DNA of 64,000 bases from Escherichia coli. Its GTDB lineage: Bacteria; Pseudomonadota; Gammaproteobacteria; Enterobacterales; Enterobacteriaceae. Position numbers and translations under genes: made by a program. The notes beneath the pieces were generated by a model. It ran no database searches, was not told the DNA's origin, and saw only the letters and a list, made by a program, of their open reading frames with translations. Numbering within the stretch: the first letter of the stretch is position 1; every line of letters starts with the position of its first letter. Shown one piece after another: positions 53,821 to 53,878 of the stretch. The DNA lies in NCBI RefSeq assembly GCF_030013595.1, contig NZ_CP122768.1. One strand, given 5' to 3'.

Positions 53821-53843
53821 AAAAACCCGCCTTGTGGGCGGGT
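53821..53843 (-). terminator. Rho-independent terminator (minus-strand sense), likely the native tRNA-Phe terminator
   Basis: Stem acccgcc/ggcgggt with 5-nt loop, followed on the minus strand by TTTTT; lies immediately 3' of the tRNA-Phe 3'-end fragment. Confidence 0.55.
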
Positions 53844-53856
53844 TCTTAAGAATTAG

Positions 53857-53878
53857 TGGTGCCGGACTCGGAATCGAA
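53857..53878 (-). repeat. 22-nt near-exact copy of the tRNA-Phe (pheV-type) 3' end: genomic-island attachment-site remnant
   Basis: Minus strand reads TTCGATTCCGAGTCCGGCACCA, matching the T-arm/acceptor 3' end of tRNA-Phe (one C short of my remembered sequence); no remainder of the tRNA follows. Confidence 0.6.

What the first reader, a model, noticed from the sequence alone, without database searches (positions are those of the whole stretch)
53821..53878. tRNA-Phe 3'-end fragment plus terminator marks a genomic island boundary right after gspM
The minus strand carries a 22-nt near-exact copy of the 3' end of tRNA-Phe (TTCGATTCCGAGTCCGGCACCA) with no upstream tRNA body, followed by a terminator hairpin with a U-tract. 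This is the expected footprint of an integrase-mediated insertion at pheV. The complete tRNA and integrase should lie beyond the right edge of the window. Everything from about 53.9 kb to the window end is therefore island cargo.
Basis: partly seen in the sequence, partly recalled or inferred. Interest (0 to 1): 0.55.

Follow-up and report, generated by a model that had tools for sequence, protein, structure and literature searches.

The report
Known pheV island boundary (attR)

Summary
The feature is already known.

- **The fragment.** Window 53857-53878 (minus strand) is TTCGATTCCGAGTCCGGCACCA. This is the last 23 nt of E. coli pheV, from the T-loop to CCA, with one G missing.
- **Its left flank.** From yghD/gspM through the native pheV terminator (53820-53848) the window matches K-12 apart from one substitution in yghD. 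It diverges from K-12 exactly at 53879.
- **Empty-site strains.** K-12 and HCP5S3_I2 carry an intact pheV and yqgA at this position.
- **Island-bearing relatives.** AHM8C212RI has yqgA, pheV, a P4-type integrase, about 75 kb of island, an Ag43/yee module, the repeat, then yghD.
- **Island content in the window.** 53879-64000 is the Ag43 ("flu") and CP4-44-like "yee" module (DUF4942, CbtA/YeeU, RadC, antirestriction, DUF932, Ag43, GTPase).
- **Publication.** A 2024 PLoS Genetics paper lists exactly this string as the GI-pheV attR in many reference strains.
- **Not verifiable here.** The window ends inside the island, so this genome's own pheV and integrase cannot be seen.

Side observations:
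- A recombination breakpoint lies at about 46.85 kb in gspE.
- The same one-G deletion occurs at pheU attR sites.
- The deletion also occurs in full-length pheV genes at empty sites.

The parts
53172..53708 (+). yghD (GspM-family, last gene of the T2SS-beta gsp operon); chromosomal backbone
   Evidence: ORF. Annotated yghD/GspM in collinear relatives. 95.9% identical to K-12 across yghE-yghD and the pheV flank (window 52206-53878).
53812..53848 (-). Native intrinsic terminator of pheV (hairpin 53820-53848, then T-rich tail)
   Evidence: Terminator scan. Fold -19.5 kcal/mol, z = -4.25. Identical to the sequence downstream of pheV in K-12.
53857..53878 (-). attR: displaced 3' end of pheV (T-loop to CCA), 22 nt, one G of GGG missing
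   Evidence: Identical to the attR string listed for GI-pheV in PMC11537424 Table 1.
53879..64000 (.). Right arm of the pheV genomic island (yee + flu modules); continues past the window edge
   Evidence: Absent from K-12 and HCP5S3_I2. Collinear with the islands of NDM2, AHM8C212RI and T2 at 98.5-99.2% overall, and 100% in most 500-nt windows over 54.0-58.0 kb.
53989..54831 (-). DUF4942 protein gene (last island gene)
   Evidence: Pfam PF13708, E = 2.3e-66. Annotation in relatives.
54876..55073 (-). DUF957 protein gene
   Evidence: ORF. Named from the 100%-identical region in relatives.
55125..55613 (-). DUF5983 protein gene
   Evidence: ORF. Annotation in relatives.
55610..55987 (-). CbtA-family type IV toxin gene
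   Evidence: Pfam PF06755, E = 5e-63.
56077..56445 (-). YeeU/CbeA-family antitoxin gene
   Evidence: ORF. Annotation in relatives.
56524..56745 (-). YeeT-like DUF987 gene
   Evidence: ORF. Annotation in relatives.
56814..57290 (-). RadC-family (YeeS-like) gene
   Evidence: NCBIfam TIGR00608, 149.9 bits, above its cut-off.
57305..57790 (-). Antirestriction protein gene
   Evidence: ORF. Annotation in NDM2 and T2.
57881..58699 (-). DUF932 protein gene
   Evidence: ORF. Annotation in relatives.
59026..61872 (-). Ag43/Cah autotransporter adhesin gene (flu)
   Evidence: NCBIfam NF033177, 1988 bits, model positions 1-948 on residues 26-973 of the ORF.
61891..62127 (-). IS102 RNA (Rfam RF00124) upstream of Ag43
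   Evidence: Rfam RF00124, 68.1 bits, above gathering score.
62244..63116 (-). YeeP-like GTPase gene, frameshifted in this window
   Evidence: A 1-nt deletion near 62453 relative to NDM2 breaks the reading frame.
63226..64000 (-). Hypothetical island gene cut by the window edge
   Evidence: Corresponds to the 1020-nt hypothetical CDS in NDM2 and AHM8C212RI. GC content 0.40.

Best explanation
Window 53857-53878 is the attR site of a pheV-integrated genomic island (GI-pheV) of Escherichia coli.

**Mechanism (established model).** A P4-type tyrosine integrase recombined the island's attP with the 3' part of pheV. The shared block starts at the first base of the T-loop. The island carries its own copy of the tRNA 3' end plus a terminator, so a complete pheV is regenerated next to the integrase at the far (left) end.

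The original chromosomal 3' end of pheV, with its native terminator, was pushed to the other end of the island. It now lies next to yghD/gspM as a functionless 22-nt remnant that has lost one G. DNA from 53879 to the window end is the island's right arm: a CP4-44-like yee module, Ag43 and a GTPase pseudogene.

**What is shown.**
- The identity of the fragment and of its flank.
- The exact break point.
- Absence of the island from empty-site strains.
- A full pheV plus integrase at the far end in a relative with the same junction.

**What is inferred.**
- That this genome also has pheV and an integrase beyond the window.
- That the crossover lies in the T-loop.
- That the one-base mismatch lowers excision.
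For: - **Fragment and flank.** Searches give the sequence, its uniqueness and its alignment to K-12 pheV. The flank matches through the terminator and diverges at 53879.
- **No tRNA in the window.**
- **Terminator.**
- **Empty sites.** K-12. HCP5S3_I2 has yghD, tRNA-Phe, yqgA.
- **Far end in a relative.** AHM8C212RI has yqgA, pheV, a 420-aa integrase with P4-like domain architecture, about 75 kb of island, the Ag43/yee module, a 23-nt repeat, then yghD.
- **Island-borne terminator.** The island's left end carries its own terminator after the regenerated pheV.
- **Frequency.** 575 of 5426 complete genomes share at least 80% of the 2-kb junction. 1851 genomes cover at least 80% of the 60-nt junction probe, and 536 have a best match at 99% identity or more.
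- **Same end at pheU.** Strain T2 has the same island end at 99.2% identity, and homology begins exactly at the CCA end, window 53857.
- **Separate history of the island.** The yee module shows no mismatch to NDM2 from 53895 to 58101, and to AHM8C212RI from 53895 to 57479, while yghD differs by about 3-4% from both.
- **Literature.** PMC11537424 Table 1 lists the attR TTCGATTCCGAGTCCGG-CACCA for APEC O1, S88, ED1a, H10407, 12009, 55989, 042, 536, REL606 and others. It describes flu and yee modules on GI-pheV.
- **T-loop start.** P4-like integrases that target phe tDNA in Klebsiella have an attB starting in the T-loop (bioRxiv 10.1101/2020.11.02.365908).
Against: - The full pheV and integrase of this genome are outside the window. 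The source genome is not in the complete-genome collection: the best junction match is 98.8%.
- In PMC11537424 some GI-pheV have lost parts by deletion, so the left end could be degraded here.
- The flank from 46.85 to 53.9 kb is 4.6% diverged from the otherwise near-identical, island-free relative. The island may therefore have entered this lineage by homologous recombination of a block and not by integration in situ.
- The one-G deletion also occurs at pheU attR sites. A simple story of decay after one integration does not explain that.
Confidence: 0.93

Rival explanations
1. The att footprint is real but inherited. In this lineage the island and about 7 kb of adjacent gsp DNA arrived together from another E. 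coli, or were kept while the sister lineage was replaced. This happened by RecA-dependent homologous recombination across the pheV locus, not by integrase-mediated insertion in this lineage. This rival concerns history only, not what the element is.
For: The window differs from island-free strain HCP5S3_I2 at only 25 positions over 4600-46800. It then differs at 325 positions over 46856-53878, with a sharp breakpoint inside gspE. The gsp allele next to the island resembles neither the sister strain nor the strains whose yee module is 100% identical. Module-wise recombination of GI-pheV is reported in PMC11537424.
Against: The direction is unknown, and the sister strain could be the recombinant. 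The right-hand crossover on the yqgA side cannot be seen. The yee module is identical in strains with different flanks, which also fits independent site-specific integrations.
Confidence: 0.5
2. The fragment is the remnant of a pheV gene destroyed by a non-site-specific event such as an IS insertion or a deletion. No intact pheV or integrase exists at the other end in this genome.
For: PMC11537424 reports decayed GI-pheV. IS remnants are common in related islands.
Against: The break falls exactly at the first T-loop base. This is the same point as in hundreds of genomes and in published attR sites. No IS end abuts it. The relative with the same junction has pheV plus an integrase.
Confidence: 0.04
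3. The match is a chance resemblance of 22 nt to a tRNA 3' end, next to an ordinary terminator for gspM.
For: None beyond the shortness of the match.
Against: 0 matches in 100 shuffles even with 3 mismatches allowed. The intergenic flank beyond yghD is base-for-base the K-12 pheV downstream region. The terminator's T-rich tail is on the minus strand, so it serves pheV and not gspM.
Confidence: 0.005

Closest known systems
GI-pheV of Escherichia coli with the 23-bp imperfect attR (PMC11537424; for example the islands of 536 [PAI V], H10407, REL606, 55989, 042, APEC O1)
   Same: The attR string is identical, TTCGATTCCGAGTCCGG-CACCA. The island sits in the K-12 pheV-yghD interval, and flu (Ag43) and yee modules lie on the island.
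   Different: Nothing structural differs. The integrase type (intP4.1-4.5) and the size of this copy cannot be determined from the window. The gsp flank allele is unusual: the best full-length match in 5426 genomes is 98.5%.
CP4-44 cryptic prophage of E. coli K-12 (the yee genes and flu; names from my own knowledge)
   Same: The gene families of the right arm match: GTPase, IS102 RNA, Ag43, DUF932, antirestriction, RadC, YeeT, YeeU/CbtA, DUF4942. PMC11537424 links the yee module to CP4-44.
   Different: CP4-44 sits at a different chromosomal locus. That it is not bounded by a pheV fragment is my own knowledge and was not tested here.
Pathogenicity island of Shigella flexneri that carries flu/yee-type modules (cited in PMC11537424); I take this to be the pheV-linked she PAI
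   Same: PMC11537424 says the flu and yee modules also occur on a pathogenicity island of Shigella flexneri. From memory, not tested here: this is the she PAI, it is integrated at pheV, it is bounded by an imperfect repeat of about 22 bp of the 3' end of pheV, and it carries an Ag43 homologue.
   Different: This is a different host and different cargo (pic/set, sigA; from memory). No comparison was run.
Islands at pheU of E. coli (for example strain T2)
   Same: The yee/flu right arm is the same (99.2% identity), with the same 22-nt repeat. pheU and pheV are identical genes over the aligned sequence.
   Different: The flank beyond CCA is the pheU type, with the yjdQ integrase remnant and cadC. 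The window has the pheV terminator and yghD.

Membership tests
attR (displaced tRNA fragment) of a tRNA-integrated genomic island, GI-pheV | The sequence equals the 3' end of the target tRNA gene, from the crossover sublocation (T-loop) to CCA | tested here: met
   22 of 23 nt match, with one G deleted. The block starts at T54 of pheV.
attR (displaced tRNA fragment) of a tRNA-integrated genomic island, GI-pheV | The fragment is joined to the native downstream flank of the tRNA gene | tested here: met
   The window matches K-12 from yghD to the terminator and CCA with one substitution, inside yghD.
attR (displaced tRNA fragment) of a tRNA-integrated genomic island, GI-pheV | Strains with an empty site have the intact tRNA and upstream gene exactly where the foreign DNA begins | tested here: met
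   K-12 and HCP5S3_I2 have yghD, pheV, yqgA. Divergence starts at 53879.
attR (displaced tRNA fragment) of a tRNA-integrated genomic island, GI-pheV | A complete tRNA gene followed by a P4-type tyrosine integrase lies at the opposite end (attL) | not testable with these tools
   This end lies beyond the window and the source genome was not found. In relative AHM8C212RI the feature is met: pheV, then an integrase with Arm-DNA-bind_3, Phage_int_M and Phage_integrase domains.
attR (displaced tRNA fragment) of a tRNA-integrated genomic island, GI-pheV | The string matches a published GI-pheV attR | tested here: met
   PMC11537424 Table 1 lists TTCGATTCCGAGTCCGG-CACCA.
attR (displaced tRNA fragment) of a tRNA-integrated genomic island, GI-pheV | The site is a substrate for integrase-mediated excision (attL x attR) | not testable with these tools
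   This needs an experiment. PMC11537424's discussion says a single mismatch can lower island deletion by orders of magnitude.
Intrinsic (rho-independent) terminator | A G+C-rich hairpin followed by a U-tract on the transcribed strand | tested here: met
   12-pair stem with 6 GC pairs and a T-rich tail on the minus strand. Free energy -19.5 kcal/mol, z = -4.25. Termination activity was not tested.
CP4-44-like yee/flu module | A co-linear set of GTPase, Ag43, DUF932, antirestriction, RadC, YeeT, YeeU/CbtA and DUF4942 genes | tested here: met
   Pfam CbtA_toxin and DUF4942. NCBIfam RadC and Ag43. Rfam IS102 RNA. The remaining names come from annotated relatives that are 100% identical over most of 54-58 kb. 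The GTPase is frameshifted.

The most novel reading that the evidence does not exclude
The one-G deletion may be more than random decay of a dead fragment. It may be a marker that cycles between chromosome and islands.

Observations:
- The same GGG-to-GG change is found at the pheV attR. 536 genomes have a best match of 99% identity or more to that 60-nt junction probe.
- It is found at the pheU attR. About 400 genomes reach 99% or more with that probe.
- It is found in 3' halves of tRNA-Phe left by a different, anticodon-loop-type class of element at both loci.
- It is found in full-length 75-nt pheV genes at empty sites.

The most novel reading is that excision with a crossover in the T-loop leaves a crippled pheV as an excision scar. 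pheU would compensate for it. Later elements would repair it by bringing a good 3' end. The GG allele would then record past island occupancy. Why it is shared between pheV and pheU would still need explaining; an overlap region that spans the G run is one possibility.
Probability: 0.25. Interest if true: 0.35.

Novelty: already known. Interest (0 to 1): 0.1.

Why it matters
For annotation, it fixes the island/backbone boundary at 53878/53879. It also marks the last 10.1 kb of the window as horizontally acquired DNA: a toxin-antitoxin pair, an antirestriction gene and the Ag43 adhesin.

It adds nothing new in kind. GI-pheV, its P4-type integrase and this exact imperfect attR are published. Between a tenth and a third of complete E. 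coli genomes show this kind of junction: 575 share at least 80% of the 2-kb junction and 1851 cover at least 80% of the 60-nt probe, out of 5426.

The small points of possible value are the recombination breakpoint in gspE linked to island presence or absence, and the recurrence of the same one-base deletion in intact pheV genes and at pheU.

Tried and rejected
- **Chance match.** Rejected.
- **Hidden or degenerate tRNA body.** ARAGORN found nothing. Rfam at the gathering threshold found nothing at the site. Rfam at E up to 10 gave only sub-threshold hits; those overlapping 53820-53848 look terminator-driven (my reading).
- **Finding the source genome to read past the right edge.** No complete E. 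coli genome matches the junction better than 98.8%, or the island arm better than 99.2%. The best backbone match, HCP5S3_I2 at 99.9%, has an empty site.
- **Chromosomal inversion in NDM2.** NDM2's island contains dcuR/ansB/aspA-like genes, which first suggested a pheV-pheU inversion. AHM8C212RI has the same block inside its island as extra copies, with the core ansB in its usual place. The inversion idea was dropped.
- **NCBIfam for the small yee ORFs.** No families were returned. Names rest on Pfam and on identical annotated relatives.
- **GC content as a boundary signal.** There is only a mild dip to 0.455 in the 53.5-54.5 kb window. It is not diagnostic.
- **Origin of the GG allele.** I tried to decide between three options: the allele is island-borne (crossover 3' of it), chromosome-borne (crossover in the T-loop), or lies inside the overlap region.
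  - AHM8C212RI has GGG with the same island end.
  - T2 has GG at pheU.
  - Empty sites carry GG.
  - Anticodon-loop-type remnants carry GG.
  - These results point in different directions, so the question is unresolved.

Full report
**1. The observation**

The plus strand at 53857-53878 reads TGGTGCCGGACTCGGAATCGAA. Its reverse complement is TTCGATTCCGAGTCCGGCACCA. The 22-mer occurs once in the window even when 3 mismatches are allowed, and it never occurred in 100 dinucleotide-preserving shuffles.

Aligned to K-12 MG1655 pheV, it is the last 23 nt of the tRNA gene with one G of the GGG run (acceptor stem, 3' strand) missing. By standard tRNA numbering, which is my own reading, those 23 nt are the T-loop TTCGATT, the 3' T-stem CCGAG, the 3' acceptor strand TCCGGGC, the discriminator A and CCA.

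ARAGORN finds no tRNA in the whole window. Rfam finds nothing at this site at gathering score, and only sub-threshold hits at E up to 10; those overlapping the hairpin look terminator-driven.

Eight bases downstream on the minus strand lies a 12-pair hairpin (53848-53820) with a T-rich tail. Its free energy is -19.5 kcal/mol against -8.75 ± 2.53 for shuffles, z = -4.25.

**2. What lies to the left**

Across the aligned stretch from the end of yghD (GspM family; ORF 53172-53708, +), through the intergenic region and the hairpin, to the CCA end, the window matches the K-12 sequence downstream of pheV. The only difference is one substitution inside yghD. The hairpin is therefore the native pheV terminator. 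It is not a gspM terminator and not an island feature.

Homology to K-12 ends at 53878. K-12 continues with the rest of pheV and then yqgA, whereas the window continues with AT-rich unrelated DNA.

The left 53.8 kb of the window is ordinary E. coli backbone. It runs hyb, gss, pitB, a yghQ-T region, glcCDEFGBA, sslE, pppA, gspS-beta and gspC-M.

**3. What lies to the right**

53879-64000 is collinear with DNA found in many E. coli genomes. Identity is 98.55% to NDM2, about 97-98% to AHM8C212RI and 99.2% to T2. All genes below are on the minus strand.

| Window coordinates | Gene or element | Evidence |
|---|---|---|
| 53989-54831 | DUF4942 | Pfam E = 2.3e-66 |
| 54876-55073 | DUF957 | annotated relatives |
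| 55125-55613 | DUF5983 | annotated relatives |
| 55610-55987 | CbtA toxin | Pfam E = 5e-63 |
| 56077-56445 | YeeU antitoxin | annotated relatives |
| 56524-56745 | DUF987 (YeeT-like) | annotated relatives |
| 56814-57290 | RadC | NCBIfam |
| 57305-57790 | antirestriction protein | annotated relatives |
| 57881-58699 | DUF932 | annotated relatives |
| 59026-61872 | Ag43 | NF033177, 1988 bits |
| 61891-62127 | IS102 RNA | Rfam RF00124 |
| 62244-63116 | GTPase, frameshifted | 1-nt deletion near 62453 |
| 63226-64000 | hypothetical gene, cut by the window edge | annotated relatives |

Names without a direct test come from annotated relatives that are 100% identical in most 500-nt windows over 54.0-58.0 kb. 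This is the "yee" plus "flu" module known from CP4-44 and from GI-pheV (PMC11537424).

**4. Empty and occupied sites elsewhere**

- **Empty sites.** K-12 has yqgA, pheV, yghD. HCP5S3_I2, the closest backbone relative, has yghD, tRNA-Phe, yqgA.
- **Occupied site with the far end visible.** In AHM8C212RI the order is yqgA, tRNA-Phe (3715313-3715388), a 420-aa tyrosine recombinase (3715586-3716848), and then about 75 kb of island. The island carries extra aspA/dcuA/ansB/dcuR copies, dgo genes, BREX-1, IS elements and the Ag43/yee module. It ends with a perfect 23-nt repeat next to yghD.
- **The integrase.** It has the Arm-DNA-bind_3, Phage_int_M and Phage_integrase domains. A Klebsiella survey describes a P4-like catalytic domain plus an N-terminal Arm DNA-binding domain for the integrase clade whose phe-targeting members have an attB that starts in the T-loop (10.1101/2020.11.02.365908).
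- **An island-borne terminator.** After the regenerated pheV the island supplies its own terminator, AACGGGCCTCCACGGAGGTCCGTTTTT. [quoted passage not shown]

**5. Frequency**

- 575 of 5426 complete E. coli genomes share at least 80% of the 2-kb junction.
- 1851 genomes cover at least 80% of a 60-nt probe made of the island end, the repeat and the pheV flank. 536 genomes have a best match at 99% identity or more.
- In the genomes sampled further down that ranking, only the 47 nt shared with an intact pheV match.
- ETEC1734, the best match for the window's gsp allele, has quite different cargo at this locus: an EAL-domain protein, IS elements, P4-like remnants and a prophage. The locus is a hotspot.

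**6. The same island end at pheU**

In strain T2 the same right arm (99.2% identity) ends with the same 22-mer. Homology to the window starts exactly at the CCA end, window 53857. The following sequence is the K-12 pheU downstream flank, with the yjdQ integrase remnant and cadC. This independently shows that the 22-mer is the edge of the mobile unit.

**7. Literature**

PMC11537424 (PLoS Genet 2024, [quoted passage not shown]) defines GI-pheV by pheV plus intP4. Its Table 1 lists attR sequences, and TTCGATTCCGAGTCCGG-CACCA is given for APEC O1, S88, ED1a, H10407, 12009, CB9615, 55989, the O104:H4 outbreak strains, 042, 536, 11128, REL606 and others.

Island sizes for this attR range from 15 to 110 kb. 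The paper's discussion says a single mismatch between repeats can lower island deletion by orders of magnitude. The finding is therefore a textbook instance of a published feature.

**8. How it works**

*Established model.* The integrase recombines attP with the 3' part of pheV. The block shared by attL and attR starts at the first T-loop base, which fits the T-loop sublocation used by P4-like integrases on phe tDNA. The island brings a replacement 3' end and a terminator. The original 3' end and terminator are displaced to the far end.

*Shown here.* The anatomy of attR and its flank, the empty-site comparison, and attL plus an integrase in a relative.

*Inferred.* That this genome still has attL and an integrase, the position of strand exchange, and the reduced excision caused by the one-base mismatch.

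**9. History in this lineage (side result)**

Against HCP5S3_I2 the window has 25 mismatches over 4600-46800. It then has 325 mismatches over 46856-53878, with a sharp breakpoint inside gspE.

Against NDM2 and AHM8C212RI the pattern is reversed. yghD differs at about 3-4% of positions. The yee module then has no mismatch to NDM2 from 53895 to 58101, and none to AHM8C212RI from 53895 to 57479. The Ag43 region is mosaic.

Island presence or absence between two near-clonal backbones is thus tied to a replaced flank of about 7 kb. This points to block exchange by homologous recombination across the pheV locus in one of the two lineages. The att footprint may date from an older integration.

**10. 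The missing G (side result, unresolved)**

The GG form is found in several contexts:
- at the pheV attR here and in NDM2, although AHM8C212RI has GGG with the same island end;
- at the pheU attR in T2, where about 400 genomes have a best match of 99% or more to that 60-nt junction probe;
- in longer 3' halves of tRNA-Phe that start at the anticodon loop and abut other elements, at pheV (strains 1506 and SI-NP020) and at pheU (AW1.7);
- in full-length 75-nt pheV genes at or near empty sites, in HCP5S3_I2, LCP30S3_I5, TW10590 and M9682-C1 (17 genomes match the 60-nt probe exactly, including the two 3'-half cases above).

ARAGORN still calls these 75-nt genes tRNA-Phe, but in a shifted register with the anticodon at position 35 instead of 34.

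Full-length GG genes are what excision with a T-loop crossover would leave behind. The presence of the same deletion at both loci is not explained by that model alone. I could not resolve this with the tools available.

**11. Verdict**

The kind of feature is already known and interest is low. The only open point about the finding itself is whether this genome's own pheV and integrase are intact, which needs sequence beyond the window.

Noticed in passing
window 46856-53878 (breakpoint inside gspE, about 46.85 kb): The window differs from island-free strain HCP5S3_I2 (NZ_CM149870) at 25 positions over 4600-46800. It then differs at 325 positions over the last 7 kb before the island. This recombination tract is linked to island presence or absence.
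   Followed up: partly
L009 1333-1407, L013 3026-3100, L012 3026-3100 (pheV of HCP5S3_I2, TW10590, M9682-C1): Full-length pheV genes at empty or near-empty sites carry the same one-G deletion as the window's attR, giving a 75-nt gene. ARAGORN calls them in a shifted register. They are possible excision scars that leave a defective pheV. 17 genomes match the 60-nt probe exactly.
   Followed up: partly
L004 47204-47225 (T2, pheU locus); L015 about 3975-4022 (AW1.7, pheU); L010 and L011 about 3026-3075 (pheV): The same GG variant occurs at pheU attR sites, where about 400 genomes have a best match of 99% or more to that 60-nt probe. It also occurs in 3' halves of tRNA-Phe that start at the anticodon loop and were left by a different class of element, at both pheV and pheU. 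Why one deletion recurs at two loci and with two element classes is unexplained.
   Followed up: partly
window 62244-63116 (-), deletion near 62453: The YeeP-like GTPase gene of the island has a 1-nt deletion relative to NDM2. The reading frame is broken, so this is either a pseudogene or a sequencing error.
   Followed up: partly
window 61891-62127 (-): Rfam IS102 RNA (RF00124, 68.1 bits) lies between the GTPase gene and Ag43. From my own knowledge, this is the position the same sRNA (IsrC) occupies in CP4-44.
   Followed up: no
window 34755-34976 (-) and 9447-9517 (-): Two backbone sRNA matches at Rfam gathering score: C0719 (294.5 bits) and naRNA4 (69.9 bits).
   Followed up: no
window 59000-62500: The Ag43 region is mosaic. 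Identity to NDM2 and AHM8C212RI is 95.6-98.8%. Stretches are 100% identical to T2, interrupted by blocks at about 97.5%. This fits the high SNP density of the flu module reported in PMC11537424.
   Followed up: no
L014 2192-2354 (K-12 yjdQ) and L006 38390-38590: The sequence downstream of K-12 pheU (its own terminator plus the yjdQ pseudogene) is homologous to the left end of the pheV island in AHM8C212RI. The same spot is annotated as a partial integrase in T2 and AW1.7. The 'native' pheU flank of K-12 is therefore itself an old island remnant.
   Followed up: partly
L004 1-10010 (strain T2): A second yee-type module plus ParDE is followed by a full integrase gene upstream of the T2 island. 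This suggests tandem islands in the pheU region.
   Followed up: no
L005/L006 (AHM8C212RI island): The relative's pheV island carries a BREX-1 defence system and second copies of aspA, dcuA, ansB, dcuR, pepT and dcuC as cargo. Whether the window's island has them is unknown.
   Followed up: no
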